DNA of 60,013 bases, counting the filler. It is 9 parts of 9 records of this genome, joined end to end, with 100 filler letters (N's around TTAATTAATTAA, not from the genome) between each part and the next. Parts side by side here need not be neighbours in the genome. Positions count along the whole stretch, not along the records: positions 8,542 to 13,674 come from SRR31147125_50586; 8 more parts are not named here. One strand, given 5' to 3'. The notes beneath the pieces were generated by a model. It was not told the origin of the DNA and ran no database searches. It was given only the letters and a program-made list of their open reading frames with translations. This document shows positions 1,515-13,674 of the stretch, piece after piece; positions within the stretch are counted from its first letter, which is position 1, and every line of letters begins with the position of its first letter. A program made the position numbers and the translations under genes.

Positions 1515-2915
1515 ATGAGCAAAAAGAACATTATTGTTATCTTGACTGATCAGCTACGATCCCATGCTCTGGGTTGCTATGGGAATCAGGAAATAAAAAC
1601 TCCCCATATCGACAATCTGGCAGGTGAGGGGTTTCTCTTTGATCATATGGTCAGCAACTGCCCTGTCTGCATGCCGGCACGGTCAGCTCTATTATCAGGA
1701 CAATACACCCGGCGCTGTACGGGAAATCTTAATAACCATCATCTGCTGGATGAGAAGGGACGGTGGTACTTCCCGGATCCGCCGGAGCGCACTAGAACTC
1801 AGCTGCCTGACAAGACCTTACCTGAGTTGTTGAAAGAGAGTGGGTACTACAACAAGCTGATCGGGAAATGGCACATACACCCTGAGCCACGACTGGTTGA
1901 TTTCGATTCATGGTGCTACCCACTGGCTTATCATCGATATTACCAGCAGTGCTTCTTCGAAGACGATGCGGCGTATACGGTGGATCAGTTTGCCCCATTC
2001 TTTGAAGCTTACAAAGTCGAAGAGTTTCTGTCTGGATATAACCGTGATGACCCCTTCTTTCTGTTCTATAACATATCTTTACCCCACATGCCTCTTGGAC
2101 AGATTCCCGAAGAGTATGAGAATCTTTATGATCCCGAAGAATTGAGCCTCCGTGGTAATGTACGCTCCGGTGGCGAGGAGTTCGACAAGCAATGGTTGGA
2201 GAACTACATCCAGTTCTACTATCGCGACCAAAAAATACAGGTCTCTGATCGATTTACAAGAGATATGGATCTTCGGAGCGTTACAGCACTCTATCGTGCC
2301 TTTGTGACAATAACTGATGAACTGGTCGGCCGCCTCATGGAGAATCTGGATAAATCTGGATTCTCAGATGACACACTGGTACTGTTCACCAGTGATCATG
2401 GCGATATGCTCGGGTCCCATGGACTCTACAACAAGTCTCAGCTATACGATGAGGCCATTCGGGTACCTCTCATTCTGAACGGTCCCGGTATAGAACCGGG
2501 ACGAAATTCTAAGCAGGTCGGCCAGACAATTGATATACTCCCGACAATACTGGATCATTGCGGTCTCCCGGCTGCAGACCATTCTGATGGACAGTCTCTG
2601 GTTCCGGTAATCAAAGCAGATACAGATACACTTGAAGTGAATCATGCTTTTATCGAGTGTACCAACTACAAAATCGGTATCCGAACGCCTGAATATACCT
2701 ACGGTGTTCAAGTGGATCCTGAGTCTCTGAGTGTAGAAGATGATGCCCTTCAATTCTATGACTGTGAAAATGACCCTTTACAAGAGCGAAATTTGGCGAA
2801 AGATCCTCCGACGAATCTGTCTGGTGTTGCCTCAAAACTCAGGCAACAAGTGATCCGATGGCATAATGAGACACCGTGGTTGGAGAATCCCGACCGATAC
2901 TTAGGAATCGAATAG
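1515..2915 (+). CDS. Formylglycine-dependent (S1) sulfatase
   Basis: NIIVILTDQ, CMPAR (CxPxR), GKWH and SDHG motifs; RBS AGGAG. Confidence 0.95.
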   Translation: MSKKNIIVILTDQLRSHALGCYGNQEIKTPHIDNLAGEGFLFDHMVSNCPVCMPARSALLSGQYTRRCTGNLNNHHLLDEKGRWYFPDPPERTRTQLPDKTLPELLKESGYYNKLIGKWHIHPEPRLVDFDSWCYPLAYHRYYQQCFFEDDAAYTVDQFAPFFEAYKVEEFLSGYNRDDPFFLFYNISLPHMPLGQIPEEYENLYDPEELSLRGNVRSGGEEFDKQWLENYIQFYYRDQKIQVSDRFTRDMDLRSVTALYRAFVTITDELVGRLMENLDKSGFSDDTLVLFTSDHGDMLGSHGLYNKSQLYDEAIRVPLILNGPGIEPGRNSKQVGQTIDILPTILDHCGLPAADHSDGQSLVPVIKADTDTLEVNHAFIECTNYKIGIRTPEYTYGVQVDPESLSVEDDALQFYDCENDPLQERNLAKDPPTNLSGVASKLRQQVIRWHNETPWLENPDRYLGIE

Positions 2916-2916
2916 C

Positions 2917-2946
2917 ATGAATCCTCCCAATGTCATAGTGATCTGA
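2917..2946 (+). pseudogene. N-terminal stub of a second sulfatase
   Basis: ATG 1 nt after the sulfatase stop reads MNPPNVIVI*, the typical sulfatase PNVIVI start. Confidence 0.5.
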
Positions 2947-3022
2947 TCTCATTGTGTAGCCTGATATAGTCTTTGACATGCCCCTCCTTTATTCTACTTC
3001 TAATCAGTTTGCTCTTGATCAT
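2933..3022 (-). pseudogene. N-terminal stub of an L-rhamnose mutarotase-like gene
   Basis: RBS AAGGAG then MIKSKLIRSRIKEGHVKDYIRLHNEI; resembles the RhaM YxRxHxxIW motif, truncated before W. Confidence 0.45.
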
Positions 3023-3350
3023 TCGCGGTTCTCCTTTTAATGCCTTTTCAGGCTCATCATACTCAATTATCTGGAATATACAGATACTCGATCAGGATGT
3101 TCTATGCCGATAATCTGCAATGTCCATCTGATGCAAGATTGCAGCTTCATTTTACGGAGCCATCAACGAGATAAAGCTTTGACCTTGTTTCAATCAGTCA
3201 TCCCCTAAGAATGGGACCCAGAGATATATATCAGGATTGTCCATATTCTCTATTTGTTTGCTCCATTTTTCGCTGCTGAATCACATAGCAACATCATCGT
3301 GGGTGCTGGTCAGACGCAGGTTCTGAGATTAGCATTCAGAAGGAGTTTTC

Positions 3351-4622
3351 ATGAAAAAGCGGATAATTCTGATTTCGGTTTTGTTCCTGGCAGCGGCCTC
3401 ATTGATGGCCAATGGTGGTTCTGATGCTGCTGAGACGGACAAGGTCTCTATCGAACTGCAGACCTGGGTTACGCCAAATCTCACAGTAGAGTATTGGGAA
3501 GGCCTTGTAGCAGAGTTCAACAAAATGTACCCGGATGTAGAAGTTGTAATGAATCAGGCAACCACCGGTGATTCCAACGCTTCTGGTTATCTGAGGACCC
3601 GCCTTGCGGCTGGTGATATGCCGGATGTCATGACCAATTTCACAAGGGAACCGTTCATTGAAGCTGAAGCTTTGATGGCTCTGCCTATCGATGAAGAGGT
3701 AAAACGCCTCAAGAGCCTGAACGGCATGCTTGTTGACGGTAAACTGTATAACTATGACGCCATCGGCAATGTCCACGGTCTTATCTATTTCAATAAAACA
3801 ATGTTTGCCGAAGCCGGTATTGATTCTCTCCCGAAGACCTATGCCGACATGGATGAAGCCTGTGCTAAACTAGCAGCAGCCGGATTCGTTCCTTTCATGA
3901 TGGCTGGTGCTGACTGGGCTGCCGGTTTCAATCTGTCTATCTGGTCAGCTCCTGAAGTTTTCTATGAAAACCAAGTTTGGTATAAAGACAGAAATGAGGG
4001 AAAAGTATCTTTTGCAGAAGACTTCCTGAATCCTCTGACCCGCTTTAAGGAATATGTCGACAAAGGTTACATTTTCAAAGGTGCATTGGGTACCGACTAT
4101 ACCACAGGACAGCAGCTATTCCTTGATGGTGAAGCGGCTATGTATCCCATGGGTGCTTGGTTCTCTGGAGCTCCTGAAGCCATGACTGCAGGTTTCGAAG
4201 TTGGAGTATTTGCTCCGGTAACTGAAGACGGTGGTGCATACTTGGCCGCACCGGCAAACCGAAGTGGTTTTGCTGTAAGCGCCACTACAGAGTTCCCTAA
4301 TGAGTCTATAGCACTTGCGAAATTCCTCGGCTTAAGTCCCTATGCTGTCACTCTGCGGATGAAGACTGATGGTGGTTTCCCAGATATGGAGAATAGTGAA
4401 GATTATCAGTATGAGATGAATCCTATCCAGAAAGAGATTGCCATTCTTTATGATGCCGCTGAGGTGATCACTAACAACCTGAACCATCCCGTGGGCGCAG
4501 CACCGCCGGCAGGTATTGGAGGTGCATTCACTTCGGCTGCACAGACGATTCTGACCGGTGGAAGTGTTGAAGAAGCACTTGAAGAACTAGATTCATTCTG
4601 GGACGACGGTATCAGTCAGTAG
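3351..4622 (+). CDS. Sugar ABC transporter substrate-binding protein (CUT1)
   Basis: Signal peptide ending ANGGSD, AAGDMPDV, YFNKTMFAEAGI, FLDGEAAMY; followed by two permeases. Confidence 0.93.
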   Translation: MKKRIILISVLFLAAASLMANGGSDAAETDKVSIELQTWVTPNLTVEYWEGLVAEFNKMYPDVEVVMNQATTGDSNASGYLRTRLAAGDMPDVMTNFTREPFIEAEALMALPIDEEVKRLKSLNGMLVDGKLYNYDAIGNVHGLIYFNKTMFAEAGIDSLPKTYADMDEACAKLAAAGFVPFMMAGADWAAGFNLSIWSAPEVFYENQVWYKDRNEGKVSFAEDFLNPLTRFKEYVDKGYIFKGALGTDYTTGQQLFLDGEAAMYPMGAWFSGAPEAMTAGFEVGVFAPVTEDGGAYLAAPANRSGFAVSATTEFPNESIALAKFLGLSPYAVTLRMKTDGGFPDMENSEDYQYEMNPIQKEIAILYDAAEVITNNLNHPVGAAPPAGIGGAFTSAAQTILTGGSVEEALEELDSFWDDGISQ

Positions 4623-8541: not shown

Positions 8542-8562
8542 AAAAGAAAGTTAATCGTTTTT

Positions 8563-8856
8563 TTAAGGCAAACTTGCTATGATATTACGGTATTCCGCCT
8601 CTGGAAAGGCGCGAAGAGTTTCCGTGCGAATATTACCCGCCGAAGCAATCGAAAGAGCTAATTTAGCAACTGTTTCATCATCTGGAGCTTCAATAACAAC
8701 TACAGCATCGTATTGACCCGTTACAAGGTAGTACTCTTTCACCTCAGCACCCATTGCCTGAAATGCTTGTTTGGCTTTATCAAGTCGGTCAGGACCTTCT
8801 TTGATGTTTTCAATACCTTGTTGTGTCATGCGAAGCAGAGAAATATATGTAGCCAT
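8563..8856 (-). CDS. GYD domain protein
   Basis: MATYISLLRMTQQG...TGQYDAVV...GNIRTETLRAF; RBS AGGAGGTG. Confidence 0.9.
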   Translation of the reverse strand: MATYISLLRMTQQGIENIKEGPDRLDKAKQAFQAMGAEVKEYYLVTGQYDAVVVIEAPDDETVAKLALSIASAGNIRTETLRAFPEAEYRNIIASLP

Positions 8857-9744
8857 AATATCACCTCCTTTCATATTTTATCTATCCCTAATGCGTTCCC
8901 TAAAACGCCATTTCTGGGCAACAATGTCCAATTCACCATCGCCGGATTTTACTGGAATATGGTATTTGAATACGGTTCTACTAGTTATATTTTATAATCT
9001 CTGTAATTATCTATTGTAGTATAATCAAAATTATCAAGTGTGAATAGTACCTTTATTTATCCGTGGTTGGCGATACGTCAATTTTTTTATCGATAGGCAG
9101 CTCAATCGATAATTCAATCAGGCGTAGAGTTTGGACTTCTTCGGAAACGAGCTCGTTTGTCTTTTATATTCTATTGCGCCAGGATGACGTTTGTTGGGAA
9201 ACATAACACATCTGTTAAACTAACGATTTAACTTTCGTAAATATGGAGACTATTACAATTGGCGTGATTGCAAAACCGAGCCTGGTCGAGAACTCTTGGT
9301 TTGTATTGGTTATCGGAATATTCGCTTGTAAACGAATTAACGATACAATGCAAATGATAGGTATAAAAACAGCATGAGCTTGATTAGAATGTGGTAAAGC
9401 GTGGTTAGTTTACTGATGTAAATGAATATGATTCGGTGAGATATAAGAATTGAAAACAATATGACATTCTCGTAGTTTTTTGGTATCGATCTTGAATACA
9501 CTTATTTATTTTACCATTGTGTAATCCCCTTACTATATAGGCTAATGTCATAGTCCACTTAAAGTGCTGAATTCGTATTCCCAGAAAATAATCATCTTAC
9601 AAAGTAACATTGGAGCAGGTTCGACTATTCCTATTTAGTGTAGAAAAACATTTACTATGACGAATTCAACAAAAGCTAATAACAACGGTTTTTCGAAAAT
9701 AAAATCTAAATGCAGATGCACAGCCTGAAAGACCAACAATTAAA

Positions 9745-9846
9745 TCAACCGGCGCGAAACATTCTGGATGCCCTGATTCGTATCGAATTAATGCTTTAGA
9801 TAAAAACAATCAAACGAATTCTTCAGGCCGTTTCGCGCCCGGCTGA
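9745..9846. repeat. Long imperfect inverted repeat / stem-loop
   Basis: TCAACCGGCGCGAAAC pairs with GTTTCGCGCCCGGCTGA; nested CCTGA-TTCGT pairs with ACGAA..TCAGG. Confidence 0.6.
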
Positions 9847-9904
9847 ATATAGATCCTGGCGATTTTACATTGATAATCTTTTTTAAAATATGAATTCAAA
9901 AAAA

Positions 9905-10697
9905 TTATTTTAATGCCATACCTTCGCCTGGCATGTGTGATAAATCCGGACGAATGAATCCACTTTTGCGTTCAAACCTTCGAATCACTGTCCAGGTTTT
10001 TTGCATCAGCGCTTGTCCTTCATTGCCAAATGATTTCATATTTTCCATGGATCTTTTTTGAATATCTATAGCATCCTTACCTGATTGCGCTACTAAAAAA
10101 AGCGGAAAATCTGTGCCTATGTCTCCCATGTAAAGACGGAATCCTTCATTGATATTGTTCTTTTCATAAAGTGCTTTCCACTCTTGAGCGATGTTTTTTG
10201 CTGCCTCTTCTTTTCCAGGATGAATATAGTAAAAGTCCCAATGGCGGAAATTTAAACCCGCCGAGATATCCCGACCATATTCCGGGTTGTGGGAAAGTTG
10301 CTCCTGATAACGTAACATAAAATTACGATGCGTATTATACGTCCCATCAAATTTTTTCATAGCGGCCTGAAATACATCAGCACCAGCCTTTTTTTGTAAC
10401 TCTCCAAAGGCGGATTCAAAAAAAGCAGCGCCGGAATAATCTTTCACAGGTGTGAAATAGAAATAGGTGAAATCCATCGCAGACGCACCTGTGAATGTAG
10501 ATGTCAAATTATGCTCTTTAAAAAGTGCTACAACACCCTTGGCTGCCTTTTCATACTGGCCAACCATGCTGGGTATGACCAAATCCTCATGAACAAAAGG
10601 AGCTGTCCCTTGGATTTTTCGTCCTGTGCCTGTGCTGGTAGAAAAGAAAAAAGCAAAAAATCGTGAAAAGTAATAAAGAAAATAATGTATGTTTCAT
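9905..10697 (-). CDS. Secreted hypothetical protein with two apparent frameshifts
   Basis: RBS AAGGAG and signal peptide MKHTLFSLLL; continues LPAQAQDEKSKGQL then VHEDLVIPSMV in other frames, with shifts at T runs. Confidence 0.7.
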
Positions 10698-11490
10698 GAT
10701 ATTTCTCCTTGAAAAAAATAACATTTTGTGGATAGTAAAGGTCCGGAATAATCGATTTAAAGAATTCGATACCTTTTCTGAAAAGTTCAAATTGCAACAT
10801 TAATTATTTTTCATAAAGGAATTTTGACTGATAATAGAGGCGCAGTATCTTATAGATGAGACAATGTGGCAGAGGAAATGTGTAAGGTGAGGAAAAACAG
10901 AATTGGCCATGTATTCGAAAAATTCAGAAGAAAGCTCAAATGATGTCCAGTGATAGTCAAAAAGCCTGGATCACTTTATCATTTTTACATATTTTAATCC
11001 TCCTGGTATAGATTCTTTTTTTTTAGATTTTATTGTGAAATATAAATGCTGTATGGCCCTTTTAAATCTGCTAAATCGTACCGGATTTTTCTACTATTAA
11101 TACAAATCTTTGATTTTCGAACGGTAAAGTCCTTTAAAAGACTCAGGAAGGGAAAAACAGTCAAATGAGGCATTCTATTCCTTGGTGGAAGAGAAAAACG
11201 TAAATTATGGTGAATTCAATACAATTTAAGTTACATTCCAGTCAAGGATGAGTTCGATAAAAAACGTAGATTGATAATATGACTAAAATCAATTTTTAGT
11301 TCATTTTTTAATGACATGATATTTTCTGAGCGAAACTGGTTTACTTATCGTTTCTACCCGATCCCAATAATCAGAACTGGAAAAATTAATAGAATCCAAA
11401 TCAACTTTATAATATCCCGCCTACTGTTGCTTTGGTTTCAGTATAGTTGAAACTGCTATATTTTCTCAAACGCCTTCCTAAAAAGTGACT

Positions 11491-11665
11491 GATTCCACTT
11501 GATCCAGTTACATAGACATCGACTGAGCTATCAACGGTGGTGGCAGTTGCCTCGTCCGAATTCAGCGGCCCATGATAGCGAGCCACCAACTGATCAACTC
11601 TGAAAATATTGTATTTGATGGTGGCGTAATCATAACATATGTCGGAATTATTAGCTAAATCCAGC
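11491..11665 (-). pseudogene. SBBP beta-propeller repeat relic
   Basis: YDYATIKYN...QLVARYHGPLNSDEA..TVDSSVDVYVTGSSG matches the SBBP repeat pattern; no start and degenerate ends. Confidence 0.8.
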
Positions 11666-11802
11666 TATCTTTTGAAGATTAATCAGATTAGAAGGATTCT
11701 ACCATGGCAGTAATAGAAAATTATTAATTTTACTCTTCAATATAATTAACAAAGACAAAACTCCGACTCCCAATCTTTCCTTATTGTAAGTTTAGTGCAT
11801 AT

Positions 11803-11868
11803 GACCATAGGAATGCATAAATTTAATTAGGTTATTAACTTAAATCAAAAAGGAGCATTCCTATGGTC
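11803..11868 (+). promoter_or_regulatory. Hairpin sequestering the RBS edge and start codon of the first DUF1670 gene
   Basis: Perfect 14-bp IR GACCATAGGAATGC (11803-11816) / GCATTCCTATGGTC (11855-11868), covering ATG 11863 and the last G of AGGAG. Confidence 0.75.
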
Positions 11869-12696
11869 GATGTAAAACATAACTATGGCCTAAAACGGCT
11901 AACCTCAAAGACCGCTCGTAATGCGATCATTCAACGGTTAGCTCAAGATTTCAATCTTACTCCAATCATTGCTGAGGCCTACTATCAGCAATTCGATCAA
12001 TACTATCGTGAACACACCAATATTTCTTTATCAAGCGGCGAGATCGCTTATGAAGCAGTCGCTGCTAATGAACCCGCTGGAAAACATATTCGACTGACTC
12101 GAAAAATTACAGTTCGACTGCGTCTTATCGATCTTAATTCCGATCTTGAAGTACTCGCCAATTATGGCCTCGCAGGACTCAGACGTCACCGCATTGCTCG
12201 ACTCACTCGACAGGCTTATGATCAAAACGCTCTACTCAGCTATGAAGACCTGGCCTTGATTTTAACATCCAGTCCCGGAACTGTGAAAAGGGATATCGCT
12301 CATCTCAGGCACCAAGGCATGTTCATCATAACCCGAGGTATGAAACATGATATGGGGCCAGGCTTGTCTCACAAAACCATCATCATTGATCTTTATCTGA
12401 AAAACTATACCTTTTCCGAAATTGAATTAGAAACCAATCATTCTGAATCTTGTGTCAAACGATATCTTGCTGATTTTATCCAGGTCGCGACACTATATGA
12501 ACAAAATTTTTCATTCAATCAGATTCGCCTCATCGCTAAAAAATCGGACCGTTTGGTTCGCGAATACATTCAACTTTACCAAACCTACAAAAAGCAAAAG
12601 AATCAACACCTCCAACAAATCATGCATCCTGCCGAACCTGGTGAGGATGCTAAAAAAATCCATTCCTTAACGGTTATAAGGAGGTCAGCGTCATGA
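11863..12696 (+). CDS. DUF1670 domain protein (multi-HTH)
   Basis: QAYDQNALLSYEDLA, TRGMKHDMGPGLSHK, HSESCVKRYLADF; RBS AGGAG. Confidence 0.85.
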   Translation: MVDVKHNYGLKRLTSKTARNAIIQRLAQDFNLTPIIAEAYYQQFDQYYREHTNISLSSGEIAYEAVAANEPAGKHIRLTRKITVRLRLIDLNSDLEVLANYGLAGLRRHRIARLTRQAYDQNALLSYEDLALILTSSPGTVKRDIAHLRHQGMFIITRGMKHDMGPGLSHKTIIIDLYLKNYTFSEIELETNHSESCVKRYLADFIQVATLYEQNFSFNQIRLIAKKSDRLVREYIQLYQTYKKQKNQHLQQIMHPAEPGEDAKKIHSLTVIRRSAS

Positions 12697-13580
12697 GCAA
12701 GCCATTGACCAAAGAACAAATTCAGCTTAAAAAAATAAGACGTCTTAAAGATAAAAATATCAAACAATTACTGCTTTATCGCTTCCTCAACCATTATGGC
12801 TATGATAAAGGCCAGATCACCGCTCGTGCTATTATTGACGATATTTTAAAACTCATCGAGGACTATTTTCTCGTTACAACCATCGATACGGATCTGCATC
12901 ACATCCATTACGGACAACTTGTCTATATGGCTGTGGATATTGAGGATTATCCCAAAAGAGGTCAGTGCATCGCATCAACACGGCTCAAACCTGTCGTACT
13001 TTCCTTTATGACTGATGATGATGTCTCTCATATCGCACACGGCTTTCAATCTTCCGCTTTGAGAAAAAAGCGTATTAAACGATGGTGCAATGAAGCATTT
13101 GACCAGGGAGGCTTGCTCTCACAGTTAGACCTGAGCATGCTACTTGGTGTCTGTGATGCCGTCGTAAGCAAATATGTCAATGAAATACAAAAAGAAGGAC
13201 ATCTATTGCCAACCAGAGGCAATATACATGATCTCTCTGGAGCAATCACTCATAAAAGGGAAATTATCACTTTGTATCTCGAAGGGTACTTGACACCTGA
13301 AATTGCTGTCAAAACAAAACACAGCCACGAGTCCGTTGATCGTTACATCAAAGATTACCACCGCGTCGAAATGCTCTGGCAAAACAACATCACCGATCTC
13401 GATCAAATCAGCCAACTTGCACGATTATCTAAGAAAGTCGTGCAGCAGTATATTGATCTCTTGCCTGATAAATATAAAATAAATTCAAAGAACAAAAATA
13501 TTGACTCTGGTGAAAAATCTAATAACTTAAATGTGTCCGGTGAAACGGAGGTGGGCTCTGCTGAGGAGCAACCCGCTTAG
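12693..13580 (+). CDS. DUF1670 domain protein (paralog, translationally coupled)
   Basis: EAFDQGGLLSQLDL, PTRGNIHDLSGAITHK, HSHESVDRYIKDY; ATGA overlap and RBS AAGGAGGT. Confidence 0.85.
   Translation: MSKPLTKEQIQLKKIRRLKDKNIKQLLLYRFLNHYGYDKGQITARAIIDDILKLIEDYFLVTTIDTDLHHIHYGQLVYMAVDIEDYPKRGQCIASTRLKPVVLSFMTDDDVSHIAHGFQSSALRKKRIKRWCNEAFDQGGLLSQLDLSMLLGVCDAVVSKYVNEIQKEGHLLPTRGNIHDLSGAITHKREIITLYLEGYLTPEIAVKTKHSHESVDRYIKDYHRVEMLWQNNITDLDQISQLARLSKKVVQQYIDLLPDKYKINSKNKNIDSGEKSNNLNVSGETEVGSAEEQPA
13501..13528 (+). promoter_or_regulatory. Candidate sigma70 promoter inside the 3' end of the second DUF1670 gene
   Basis: TTGACT-N16-TAACTT; a start about 7 nt downstream falls on the first base of the hairpin (G13535). 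Confidence 0.35.
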
Positions 13581-13651
13581 GGATAACCGGACCGAAAGAA
13601 ATGTTCGGGAGGATAATCTATATTCTCCCGACTTTTATATTTTTTCTTTCG
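13535..13651 (+). ncRNA. Candidate structured ncRNA or element end (two adjacent hairpins)
   Basis: Hairpin 1: GTCCGGT/ACCGGAC, 7x7 purine-rich internal loop, AGGTGGG/CCCGCTT. Hairpin 2: CGAAAGAAA/TTTCTTTCG enclosing TCGGGAGGATA/TATTCTCCCGA plus a T tract. Confidence 0.45.
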
Positions 13652-13674
13652 ATATGCCTTTAAAACCTTTCTTT

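What the first reader, a model, noticed from the sequence alone, without database searches (positions are those of the whole stretch)
13501..13651. Structured ~115-nt RNA candidate overlapping the 3' end of the second DUF1670 gene
Seen: a GC-rich island in AT-rich DNA. Hairpin 1 (13535-13592) has a 7-bp basal stem, a symmetric 7x7 purine-rich loop (GAAACGG/AGGGAUA), a 7-bp upper stem with G-U pairs and a TGCT-GAGG-AGCA cap. Hairpin 2 (13593-13651) abuts it and contains a terminator-like stem with a T tract. TTGACT-N16-TAACTT would start transcription at the first paired base. CCGAA/TTCGG (13592-13608) is a mutually exclusive alternative pairing. I could not match it to a riboswitch or ribozyme I know. 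Inference: either an element-encoded ncRNA (analogous in position to TnpB omega/reRNA) or a novel attenuator for a gene beyond the contig end.
Basis: partly seen in the sequence, partly recalled or inferred. Interest (0 to 1): 0.72.

Follow-up and report, generated by a model that had tools for sequence, protein, structure and literature searches.

The report
Portable folded RNA in jumping genes
The two hairpins are one copy of a conserved, apparently undescribed folded-RNA gene that many unrelated bacterial jumping genes and a tiny plasmid carry just inside one end, so it is not special to the DUF1670 genes and its job is still unknown.

Summary
Window 13535-13592 (P1) and 13593-13651 (P2) fold far better than shuffles (z -5.6) and best on the + strand.

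The hairpins lie at the right end of a ~1.9-kb TIR-bounded insertion sequence (IS) whose only genes are two DUF1670 genes. The contig stops before the right inverted repeat.

The module is not DUF1670-specific. It has a fixed -10 box, P1 with near-constant internal loops, a variable hairpin P2 (here a terminator-like hairpin) and an AUGCCU-N2-AAAA-W-CC tail.
- In those contigs it sits subterminally and points outward in IS3-, IS110-, ISL3-, IS21- and IS30-type elements, an AAA_22/AAA_25 two-gene element and a RepL mini-plasmid.
- P1 shows strong covariation: 12 of 16 pairs change on both sides. G-U pairs outnumber A-C (111 vs 28).
- The closest DUF1670 relatives lack it, including 6 identical copies in one genome.

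No Rfam family matches, and seven paper searches found no description.

Best reading: a self-contained, promoter-driven small RNA gene carried as an exchangeable passenger. It is neither a guide for the DUF1670 proteins nor an attenuator, because relatives continue into the IS end and a convergent type IX secretion gene. No transcript has been seen and the function is open. A replication-priming role is the boldest reading still allowed.

The parts
11789..13674 (+). DUF1670 insertion sequence, cut short at its right side by the contig end. About 45-60 nt and the right inverted repeat are missing.
   Evidence: The left boundary comes from comparison with 6 identical copies in one genome and other loci. 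RNA-bearing relatives are 1920-1987 bp long and RNA-less ones 1731-1851 bp. The contig end is at 13674.
11791..11812 (+). Left terminal inverted repeat (GTTTAGTGCATATGACCATAGG).
   Evidence: It matches the reverse complement of the conserved right end ...CCTATGGTCATATGATACTATTT seen in relatives.
11863..12696 (+). ORF1, DUF1670 protein, 277 aa.
   Evidence: PF07900, E 1.5e-57.
12693..13580 (+). ORF2, DUF1670 protein, 295 aa. Its last ~30 codons read through the RNA promoter and into P1.
   Evidence: PF07900, E 1.9e-60. RNA-less relatives match only residues 1-262/267. Upstream ORFs of other families enter P1 in all three frames.
13501..13506 (+). -35-like hexamer TTGACT.
   Evidence: The -35 is only weakly conserved in relatives, mostly 3 of 6 matches.
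13523..13528 (+). -10 hexamer TAACTT, ending 6 nt before P1.
   Evidence: TANNNT is at this fixed offset in 75 of 109 loci, against about 5 of 109 in control windows.
13535..13592 (+). P1: a 58-nt hairpin with conserved internal loops (GAAAC.GA / AGGGAUA), a CUC/A bulge and a 4-bp cap.
   Evidence: Fold. Covariance model R1 scores 79.2 bits, E 3e-18. 12 of 16 pairs change on both sides and 91.8% of cells are paired.
13593..13651 (+). P2: a long hairpin abutting P1. Inside it are a terminator-like hairpin (13605-13631) and a T tract (13632-13650).
   Evidence: Fold and terminator scan. One helix encloses the whole P2 segment in 90 of 98 relatives, against 168 of 980 shuffles.
13654..13667 (+). 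Conserved tail ATGCCTTTAAAACC (family form AUGCCU-N2-AAAA-W-CC).
   Evidence: A regex found it in 101 of 121 motif matches, mostly 115-150 nt after the start of the P1 loop. It is absent from RNA-less DUF1670 elements.

Best explanation
The finding is one copy of a portable module of about 190 bp, a self-contained small-RNA gene.

How it probably works in the window:
- RNA polymerase uses the -10 box at 13523-13528 and starts at, or 1-2 nt before, the first paired base of P1.
- The transcript folds into P1. Its stems drift freely, but its internal-loop nucleotides are almost fixed.
- The transcript then folds into P2, whose inner hairpin plus T tract ends most transcripts. The expected product is about 105-115 nt.
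- The short tail after P2 belongs to the module. In G+C-rich relatives a G+C hairpin (P3) follows it, and tail plus P3 read as an intrinsic terminator on the opposite strand. That arrangement would insulate the module from inward transcription.

The module sits as a passenger between the last (or first) gene and the nearest inverted repeat. It always points outward, in many unrelated mobile elements, and is exchanged among them.

I infer that the RNA works through P1's conserved loops. They would be the binding surface for a partner common to the hosts, not for any one transposase and not for the DUF1670 proteins.

Shown:
- the structure, the covariation and the strand;
- the fixed -10 box;
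- the position and orientation in the elements;
- the distribution across element families.

Inferred:
- that the RNA is made;
- its ends;
- that it acts in trans on a host factor.
For: Fold in the window: z -5.6 on the + strand, -4.3 on the - strand.

P1 across 98 sequences, 94 of them distinct:
- 91.8% of cells are paired, against 77.2 +/- 0.7 in shuffles.
- 12 of 16 pairs change on both sides.
- 241 cells carry double changes, against 83 +/- 9 in shuffles.
- Slid registers pair in at most 46% of cells.

Strand:
- G-U/U-G pairs number 111, against 28 A-C/C-A.
- P1 is more stable on the + strand in 87 of 98 sequences.

Promoter: TANNNT lies at a fixed offset in 75 of 109 loci, against about 5 of 109 in control windows. 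In 55 of those 75 it ends exactly 6 nt before P1 (13 nt before the G of GAAAC).

P2:
- One helix encloses it in 90 of 98 sequences, against 168 of 980 shuffles. The median z is -5.0.
- In the window it is flagged as terminator-like.

Not coding: upstream ORFs of different families enter P1 in all three frames and stop at the UGA or UAA/UAG inside its loops.

Not DUF1670-specific:
- None of the 118 metagenome loci encodes a DUF1670 relative (best tblastn E 0.002, and only over the tail that overlaps the RNA region).
- By local tblastn, 48 of 120 loci have a mobile-element gene next to the module: 24 IS3-type rows, 10 ISL3, 3 IS110, 4 IstB-like, 4 AAA_22/25, 2 group II reverse transcriptase and 1 RepL. 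One IS3-type row (L137) is IS30-like by Pfam.
- Pfam confirms representatives of these families.
- In IS3-type elements the module lies inside the inverted repeats.
- In 10 of 10 ISL3 loci the transposase is on the other strand, so the module points outward and not simply 'downstream of the gene'.
- RefSeq annotates an IS110 transposase directly upstream of a copy on Acidisarcina polymorpha plasmid pACPOL3.

Exchange between families: the IS110-borne unit L037 is 80% identical to the IS3-borne unit L136, while IS3-borne units fall to 45% identity among themselves.

Dispensable for DUF1670 elements:
- Model R1 hits 10 of 37 sources. These are the window and 9 of 36 DUF1670 loci.
- Six identical RNA-less copies sit in one complete genome.
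Against: - No transcript has been seen. The one run search listed no RNA holder.
- The -35 is weak, mostly 3 of 6 matches.
- In G+C-rich lineages P2 has no U tract, so the 3' end there is unknown.
- In low-G+C copies and in the RepL plasmid the conserved tail lies beyond a canonical terminator. A released ~110-nt RNA would therefore not contain the tail, so its conservation is unexplained by this reading.
- No partner has been identified.
- The columns GAAAC, GA, GGC, CUGC and GCAAC are constant in the 90 metagenome rows because the fetching pattern required them.
- All five named IS families that carry the module are on a published list of circle-forming families. A generic passenger RNA does not predict that.
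- An earlier scan note (e1-2089257) reported a shared IS module in Acidobacteriota that pairs best on the strand opposite the transposase.
Confidence: 0.5

Rival explanations
1. Replication-priming signal. The module would start DNA synthesis outward across the abutted ends of a circular copy of the element. It could do this as an RNA primer made from its own promoter, or as a folded single strand like the single-strand origins (sso) of rolling-circle plasmids and ICEs.
For: - All five named IS families that carry it (IS3, IS110, ISL3, IS21, IS30) are on a published list of families with circular intermediates and presumed copy-out-paste-in transposition (10.1101/2023.06.07.543989, Introduction passage).
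- It directly follows a RepL-like replication gene in a ~2.2-kb tandemly assembled unit. L101 holds 4 copies and L102 one.
- It is about 200 bp, has several hairpins and keeps one orientation.
- It is dispensable and is shared by unrelated elements. ICEBs1 sso1 and plasmid sso's are described in the same terms in passages of PMC4595007.
- It is kept next to IS3-type right ends that have no transposase beside them, for example an inverted repeat, a GNAT gene, the RNA and an inverted repeat in L073.
- It was found in 0 phage records and in only 2 viral contigs.
Against: - A canonical terminator inside P2 in the window, L101 and other low-G+C copies would release the RNA rather than leave it as a primer.
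- A -10 box lying outside the hairpins is what a normal double-strand promoter looks like. It does not fit what I recall of sso-type promoters, which are formed within the folded single strand.
- No single-stranded stage is known for most of these IS families.
- RepL context was seen in only 2 of 120 loci.
- No sequence comparison with known sso's was possible here.
Confidence: 0.2
2. Only a terminator and insulator cassette. P2 would end outward transcription. Tail plus P3 would end inward transcription. P1 would be a 3' stabiliser of the transposase mRNA.
For: - P2 is terminator-like in the window and in L101.
- Read on the opposite strand, tail plus P3 is a G+C hairpin followed by a U tract. 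The same arrangement occurs in the forward sense upstream of the module in L133 and L143.
- RNA-less DUF1670 elements have a plain hairpin in the same place.
Against: - This does not explain P1's near-constant loop nucleotides across very different G+C contents.
- It does not explain the fixed -10 box.
- In ISL3 elements the module is upstream of the transposase and divergent from it, so it cannot be that gene's 3' end.
- Short variants keep P1 and the tail but lack P2: L041, L112, L127 and L137.
Confidence: 0.12
3. Decoy for a global RNA-binding regulator of the CsrA type, a special case of the main reading. The unpaired GGA triplets in P1's two internal loops and in its cap would titrate the regulator.
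For: - GGA lies in both conserved internal loops, and in the cap of most of the 98 P1 rows by my reading of the alignment, not a count.
- Several more GGA triplets occur in P2 of many copies.
- A CsrA gene is present in 3 of 5 MAGs that carry the module.
Against: - CsrA was not found in 2 of 5 carrier MAGs, although MAGs are incomplete.
- The cap lacks GGA in several lineages.
- No binding has been tested.
Confidence: 0.08
4. Guide or cofactor RNA for the two DUF1670 proteins, in the manner of omega/reRNA or bridge RNA.
For: The position at the 3' end of the last gene, overlapping its coding end, resembles the sense-overlapping RNAs of tnpB genes (PMC4615843, abstract seen in the listing).
Against: - The nearest DUF1670 relatives (82% identical ORF2) lack it, yet are present as 6 identical copies.
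- The module occurs with unrelated transposases.
- The loops are constant although element ends and targets differ.
- No complementarity to the left ends beyond the inverted repeats was found in 8 elements.
- The tail shows no consistent pairing with the left-end region. Of 12 elements, z is near 0 for most and -2.3 at best.
Confidence: 0.03
5. Riboswitch or attenuator for a downstream gene, or a self-cleaving ribozyme.
For: The layout is a hairpin with conserved internal loops followed by a terminator. Conserved loop nucleotides are typical of aptamers and ribozymes.
Against: - No co-oriented gene follows. In the relatives whose contig continues, the module is followed by the inverted repeat and then a convergent gene.
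- The proposed alternative pairing is not conserved.
- No Rfam riboswitch or ribozyme matches.
- P2 is dispensable.
- Cleavage cannot be tested with these tools.
Confidence: 0.05

Closest known systems
omega/reRNA ('sense overlapping transcripts') at the 3' end of tnpB genes in IS200/IS605 elements (PMC4615843, abstract seen in listing; PMC8612924, title and abstract in listing)
   Same: It is a structured non-coding RNA. It is encoded inside an insertion sequence, overlaps the 3' end of the last gene and lies near the right end.
   Different: - No TnpB or IscB gene is in any context examined.
- The RNA does not run to the element boundary.
- The loops are constant rather than programmable.
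- It is shared by unrelated transposase families and is dispensable within the DUF1670 family.
Ssr9 of ISPpu9, an IS110-family element of Pseudomonas putida (PMC8450116, abstract read)
   Same: It is a small RNA with its own promoter, encoded downstream of the transposase gene inside the IS.
   Different: - Ssr9 acts by pairing with the element's own antisense RNA Asr9.
- Here no similarity or complementarity to the element's left end was found beyond the inverted repeats.
- The same RNA serves many IS families.
Single-strand origins (sso) of rolling-circle plasmids and ICEBs1 sso1 (PMC4595007, passages read)
   Same: - It is about 200 bp and has several stem-loops.
- It is orientation-specific.
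- It lies immediately after the last replication or transfer gene.
- It is similar between unrelated mobile elements.
- Structure matters more than sequence in the stems.
- It is dispensable.
   Different: - Most carriers here are insertion sequences with no known single-stranded stage.
- A -10 box precedes the first hairpin.
- An intrinsic terminator lies inside the module.
- No similarity to a known sso was tested.
Bridge RNA of IS110 and seekRNA of IS1111 elements (recalled, no paper read here)
   Same: It is a structured RNA with internal loops in the non-coding end of an IS. Four copies here follow IS110-type transposases.
   Different: - As I recall them, bridge-RNA loops pair with the target and the donor ends and change with them.
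- Here the loops are the same in elements with different ends and targets.

Membership tests
Any Rfam 15 family | Score at or above the family's gathering threshold | tested here: not met
   There were 0 matches in the whole window. At E <= 10 on 13300-13674 the best hit scored 24.3 bits against a threshold of 80. Twelve related loci gave only group II intron hits elsewhere in L042. A full G+C-rich copy gave one 15-bit hit.
TnpB/IscB omega (re)RNA | Adjacent TnpB or IscB nuclease gene | tested here: not met
   The window genes are DUF1670 only. No TnpB or IscB family appeared in the context scans that were run (the two summary calls list only the 25 most frequent families).
TnpB/IscB omega (re)RNA | The RNA scaffold ends at the element boundary and reads into flanking DNA as the guide | tested here: not met
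   45-75 nt of element sequence and the inverted repeat follow the tail. A terminator-like hairpin lies inside P2.
IS110 bridge RNA / IS1111 seekRNA | Internal loops complementary to the target and donor ends, varying with them | tested here: not met
   The loop sequences are near-constant across 98 copies from elements with different ends. Only the inverted repeats matched between the unit and the left ends in 8 elements.
Intrinsic terminator | G+C-rich hairpin followed by a T/U tract | tested here: met
   Window 13605-13631 plus CTTTTATATT was flagged. This holds for P2 only. It does not hold in G+C-rich lineages, whose 3' loops are A/C-rich, and it does not account for P1.
Riboswitch / transcription attenuator | A co-oriented downstream gene under its control | tested here: not met
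   In the related DUF1670 copies whose contig continues, the right inverted repeat follows the module. In 15 of 19 loci a convergent ORF ends at the element's last codon, and 8 of 8 tested are Por_Secre_tail.
Riboswitch / transcription attenuator | A conserved, mutually exclusive alternative pairing | tested here: not met
   The TTCGG partner is absent from all 8 related DUF1670-element copies aligned.
Single-strand origin (sso) | An orientation-specific, multi-hairpin segment of ~200 bp shared by unrelated mobile elements | tested here: met
   The sso properties come from passages of PMC4595007.
Single-strand origin (sso) | Promotes second-strand synthesis of a single-stranded intermediate | not testable with these tools
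   This needs a plasmid-stability or ssDNA assay. Only 2 of 120 loci (L101, L102) have a RepL-type replication gene beside the module.
ISPpu9-type IS sRNA (Ssr9) | Complementarity to an antisense RNA or 5' UTR of the same element | tested here: not met
   Searches found nothing beyond the inverted repeats.
CsrB/RsmZ-type decoy RNA | Several unpaired GGA sites, and a CsrA gene in the host | tested here: inconclusive
   GGA lies in both internal loops and in the cap of most of the 98 rows by my reading of the alignment. CsrA was found in 3 of 5 carrier MAGs.
DUF1670 two-gene insertion sequence (for the surrounding element) | Two overlapping PF07900 genes between the family's inverted repeats | tested here: met
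   Both genes match and the left repeat is present. The right repeat is not in the window because the contig ends at 13674.

The most novel reading that the evidence does not exclude
The module is a host-adapted replication-start cassette. It would be a small promoter-driven folded RNA, or the same strand folded as DNA, that lets the host's own enzymes begin DNA synthesis outward across the joined ends of a circular copy. Circle-forming insertion sequences, small plasmids and other mobile elements would then swap it among themselves much as rolling-circle plasmids swap single-strand origins. If so, many 'simple' insertion sequences carry an origin-like function that nobody has looked for.
Probability: 0.2. 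Interest if true: 0.9.

Novelty: new variant of a known kind. Interest (0 to 1): 0.72.

Why it matters
Insertion sequences are thought to carry only what their own transposase needs. The RNAs known from them (RNA-OUT, Ssr9, omega RNA, bridge RNA) are each tied to one element family.

Here one folded RNA gene has covarying stems and fixed loop nucleotides. It is shared by at least five classical IS families, the DUF1670 element, an AAA_22/AAA_25 element and a mini-plasmid. Its hosts include Acidobacteriota, Desulfobacterales, Cloacimonadota and KSB1.

That points to a common need of mobile DNA, or a common host target, that has not been described.

It also gives two practical leads:
- A concrete family for RNA databases: alignment A2 and model R1.
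- A testable link between the module and the circle-forming way of transposing.

For annotation, it explains the spurious 12-30-residue C-terminal 'GETEAGSA...' extensions on many transposase gene calls.

Tried and rejected
Rfam:
- Gathering thresholds on the whole window and on 12 related loci gave nothing for the module.
- Permissive E-values on the window copy and on a G+C-rich copy gave nothing usable either.

Expression:
- The run search on window 11790-13674 listed no RNA holder. It found 2 DNA holders, one of which may be the source sample.

Whole genome:
- None is held for the window.
- Model R1 hit 6 of 10 related MAGs reached by handle. That is 5 of 5 and 1 of 5. All six were the already known loci.
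- In the phylum of an Acidobacteriota-labelled MAG, R1 hit 1 of 151 genomes and the exact pattern hit 0 of 401.
- My guess is that MAGs rarely retain short repeat contigs. These blanks say little about distribution.

Other collections:
- Plasmids: 1 record, Acidisarcina polymorpha pACPOL3, with two of three queries.
- Phages: 0 records.
- Viral contigs: 2.

Pairing tests:
- Tail against the left-end region of 12 elements: z was near 0 for most and -2.3 at best. In that script the slice I used for the window's tail was offset, so the window row does not count.
- Unit against left ends in 8 elements: only the inverted repeats matched.

Other checks:
- The RNA-less 3' region of the L007-type DUF1670 element is not shared with other elements in its genome. 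It has 6 matches, all in its own copies.
- My first context table took the longest same-strand ORF upstream. For ISL3 loci this picked a spurious antisense frame. I corrected it.
- A search for left inverted repeats near 'solo' units with blastn-short was too insensitive to settle whether they are miniature elements or orphan right ends.
- CsrA presence was inconclusive.

Papers:
- 'DUF1670' returned 0 papers.
- Six further searches returned no description of this RNA by title or abstract.
- Supplementary files were not consulted.
Full report
**What is at the coordinates.** The window is nine short contigs joined by N spacers, and the finding lies at the right end of contig 8542-13674.
- The + strand of 13530-13660 folds into two abutting hairpins, P1 13535-13592 and P2 13593-13651, at -52.0 kcal/mol. 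Dinucleotide shuffles give -33.85 +/- 3.24 (z -5.6), and 0 of 200 fold as well.
- The - strand is weaker: -41.7 kcal/mol, z -4.3.
- P1 is 62% G+C in a 37.6% contig.
- The inner hairpin of P2 (13605-13631) plus its T tract is flagged as terminator-like.
- TTGACT-N16-TAACTT lies at 13501-13528 and ends 6 nt before P1.
- ORF2 (12693-13580, DUF1670, E 1.9e-60) runs through this promoter and stops inside P1. ORF1 (11863-12696) is also DUF1670.

**The surrounding element.** Relatives of ORF2 occur at 45-82% identity in MAGs labelled as many different phyla, often on contigs of about 2 kb. One complete genome holds at least six copies.
- All relatives share a right end ...CCTATGGTCATATGATACTATTT, and the window has the inverted copy at 11791-11812. 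The two genes are therefore the cargo of a TIR-bounded insertion sequence of 1.7-2.0 kb.
- The window contig stops about 45-60 nt before the right repeat.
- In 15 of 19 loci the element's last six bases supply the final codon and stop of a convergent gene. For 8 of 8 of these tested, the end of that gene is a type IX secretion sorting domain (Por_Secre_tail).
- This agrees with earlier notes of this scan (e1-3003129 and others).
- What lies beyond the contig end is therefore an inverted repeat and a convergent gene, not a gene that the hairpins could attenuate.

**The module within the DUF1670 family.**
- Nine of the 36 related loci carry homologous hairpins between ORF2 and the right repeat: L001-L006, L014, L015 and L021. 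Model R1 hits these nine and the window, and nothing else among 37 sources.
- The closest relatives of the window's ORF2 (82% identity, L007-L013) lack the module. Their ORF2 ends about 30 codons earlier, and they are present as six identical copies.
- A relative with only 53% identical ORF2 (L021) has the module, at 76% nucleotide identity to the window's.
- The module is thus dispensable for this element and is distributed patchily.

- Of 121 matches, 111 carry the expected 3' loop sequence by a regex test. I judged two of the others (L058, L140) to be chance matches.
- 96 of 119 testable matches show a basal stem of at least 6 of 7 pairs under a lenient test that 29 of 114 controls also pass.
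- None of these contigs encodes a DUF1670 protein.
- Local tblastn with Pfam-checked references finds a mobile-element gene beside the module in 48 of 120 loci (Pfam):
  - 24 IS3-type rows (HTH_21 + rve), of which L137 is IS30-like by Pfam (HTH_38 + rve);
  - 10 ISL3;
  - 3 IS110;
  - 4 IstB-like, of which L118 is a clear IS21 and 3 are weak matches on the other strand;
  - 4 of an AAA_22/AAA_25 pair;
  - 2 group II intron reverse transcriptases;
  - 1 RepL.
- Of the remaining 72 loci, 35 have under 800 nt of sequence upstream.
- Of 35 further loci scanned by Pfam, 3 have IstB and 2 have rve. The rest look like ordinary host genes.
- In IS3-type elements the module lies inside the inverted repeats, in elements of about 1.6 kb.
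- In all 10 ISL3 loci the transposase is on the other strand, starting 118-211 nt from P1. An ISL3-type end follows about 70 nt after the tail. One of these, L139, has an IS3-type end after the module and may be mere adjacency.
- The common rule is therefore 'subterminal and pointing outward', not 'after the last gene'.
- A named isolate also has it. On Acidisarcina polymorpha plasmid pACPOL3 the module starts 18 nt after an annotated IS110 transposase.
- In L101 the module follows a RepL-like replication gene in four tandem units of about 2.2 kb, and L102 has one more copy.

**Anatomy of the family.**
- *Promoter.* A TANNNT hexamer starts 18-20 nt before the G of GAAAC in 75 of 109 non-redundant loci. 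Control windows of equal width hold one in about 5 of 109. The -35 is weak.
- *P1.* On 98 sequences (94 distinct rows), 91.8% of cells pair, against 77.2% in shuffles. 12 of 16 pairs change on both sides. 241 cells carry double changes, against 83 +/- 9. Sliding the partner by 1-3 columns drops pairing to 46% or less.
- *Caveat on P1.* The columns required by the fetching pattern cannot vary in the 90 metagenome rows. The informative pairs are the seven basal pairs, four of the five middle pairs and the cap-closing pair.
- *Strand.* G-U/U-G cells number 111, against 28 A-C/C-A. P1 is more stable on the + strand in 87 of 98 sequences, and P2 in 62 of 98.
- *Coding.* Upstream ORFs enter P1 in all three frames and end at the UGA or UAA/UAG inside its loops. 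The 'GETE.GSA..QP' tails on ORF2 and on many transposases are therefore by-products.
- *P2.* It varies almost completely in sequence but keeps its plan.
  - It starts right after P1 and ends about 3 nt before the tail.
  - One helix encloses it in 90 of 98 sequences, against 168 of 980 shuffles (median z -5.0).
  - Its larger unpaired stretch is on the 3' side and is G-poor, 9% against 28% overall.
  - In low-G+C copies it reads as a terminator. In G+C-rich copies it does not.
  - Four copies (L041, L112, L127, L137) lack P2 altogether.
- *Tail.* AUGCCU-N2-AAAA-W-CC follows in 101 of 121 matches (it was found by regex, so the logo is partly circular).
- *P3.* In many G+C-rich copies a G+C hairpin comes next. 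Read on the other strand, P3 plus tail is a hairpin followed by a U tract.
- *Inverted tails.* In L083, L087, L116, L133, L143 and L149, and with one mismatch in L068, an inverted copy of the tail lies 60-100 nt upstream of P1. In L101 the tail pairs with such a copy in a stem of about 40 bp. I cannot explain the conserved AUGCC.

**What it is not.**
- No Rfam family matches.
- It is not a guide of the omega, bridge or seek type. The loops are constant although ends and targets differ. Element sequence follows the tail. Nothing in the unit matches or complements the left ends beyond the inverted repeats.
- It is not an attenuator. The CCGAA/TTCGG alternative pairing is not conserved.

**What it most likely is.** By anatomy, this is a small-RNA gene. 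It has a -10 box at the right distance, a 5' hairpin that begins at the start site, and a terminator, in the window and other low-G+C copies.
- Units cross family lines. The IS110-borne L037 is 80% identical to the IS3-borne L136, while IS3-borne units fall to 45% among themselves.
- Because the same loops serve unrelated transposases, I infer a partner common to the hosts.
- I put about 0.5 on this reading as a whole. I would put about 0.85 on 'a real, conserved, + strand structured module shared by unrelated mobile elements'.
- No transcript has been seen.

**The main rival.** All five named IS families that carry the module are on a published list of families with circular intermediates and presumed copy-out-paste-in transposition (preprint 10.1101/2023.06.07.543989, Introduction passage). 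The module also follows a plasmid replication gene.
- Its size, multi-hairpin build, fixed orientation, dispensability and sharing between unrelated elements match what is written about single-strand origins, including ICEBs1 sso1 (PMC4595007 passages).
- A replication-priming role is therefore possible, at about 0.2.
- Against it: a terminator that would release the RNA, a -10 box outside the hairpins, and the lack of a known single-stranded stage for these families.

**Relation to earlier notes of this scan.**
- e1-1926432 reported that an IS3 end shares a folded RNA with a DUF1670 element. I reach the same conclusion independently and extend it.
- e1-2089257 reported a shared module after the last gene of six or more IS families in Acidobacteriota, pairing best on the strand opposite the transposase.
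- My strand tests put P1 on the transposase strand in IS3, IS110 and DUF1670 elements, and on the opposite strand in ISL3. That may reconcile the two notes if they describe the same module, which I could not check.

**Novelty.**
- No paper holds 'DUF1670'.
- Six further searches found no description of such an RNA by title or abstract.
- The nearest precedents are family-specific IS RNAs: Ssr9, whose abstract I read, and the tnpB sense-overlapping RNAs, whose abstract I saw in the listing.

Noticed in passing
L002-L021, L035 right junctions; expected just beyond window 13674: The DUF1670 element inserts in one orientation at the last codon of type IX secretion (Por_Secre_tail) genes and supplies the final codon and stop itself. 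This holds in 15 of 19 loci by translation, and 8 of 8 tested by Pfam. A short TATTT-like repeat flanks the element.
   Followed up: partly
window 11806-11877: CCATAGGAATGC in the left inverted repeat is complementary to GCATTCCTATGG spanning the ribosome-binding site and the ATG of ORF1. A transcript entering from outside could hide the start codon, a classic IS safeguard. I saw this by eye only and did not fold it.
   Followed up: no
L101 1-7253; L102: L101 holds four tandem units of about 2.1-2.3 kb. Three hold a RepL-like gene by tblastn or Pfam. All four hold the RNA module, three of them with a ~300-nt P2 region, and they carry small reverse-strand ORFs. It is probably a tiny plasmid assembled as a concatemer. 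In it the tail pairs with an inverted copy of itself.
   Followed up: partly
L073 (oriented) about 300-1180; L057; L052; L056 and others: Many copies of the G+C-rich subtype have the IS3-type right end but no transposase beside them. Ordinary or passenger genes sit upstream (GNAT, beta-lactamase fold and others). L073 has an IS3-type left repeat, a GNAT gene, the RNA and a right repeat in about 870 bp. They may be miniature or cargo-carrying derivatives, or orphan right ends.
   Followed up: partly
L042 72-2531 (- strand); L108 about 1559-3420: Group II introns lie next to the module. In L108 the intron's 3' end abuts the module's -35 region.
   Followed up: no
L132, L114, L145, L071: A two-gene unit, an AAA_22 ATPase followed by an AAA_25 ATPase with a C-terminal winged-helix-like tail, precedes the module. 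I do not know what kind of element this is.
   Followed up: no
L083, L087, L116, L133, L143, L149, L068, 60-100 nt upstream of P1: An inverted copy of the tail, sometimes with part of the P2 arm, lies upstream of the promoter. In L133 and L143 it is the U tract of a forward terminator. The module is thus sometimes bracketed by inverted repeats.
   Followed up: partly
L059, L039, L089, L125 and other ISL3 loci: In high-G+C DNA the frame antisense to the ISL3 transposase stays open for over 300 codons and is conserved between loci. It could be mistaken for a gene.
   Followed up: yes
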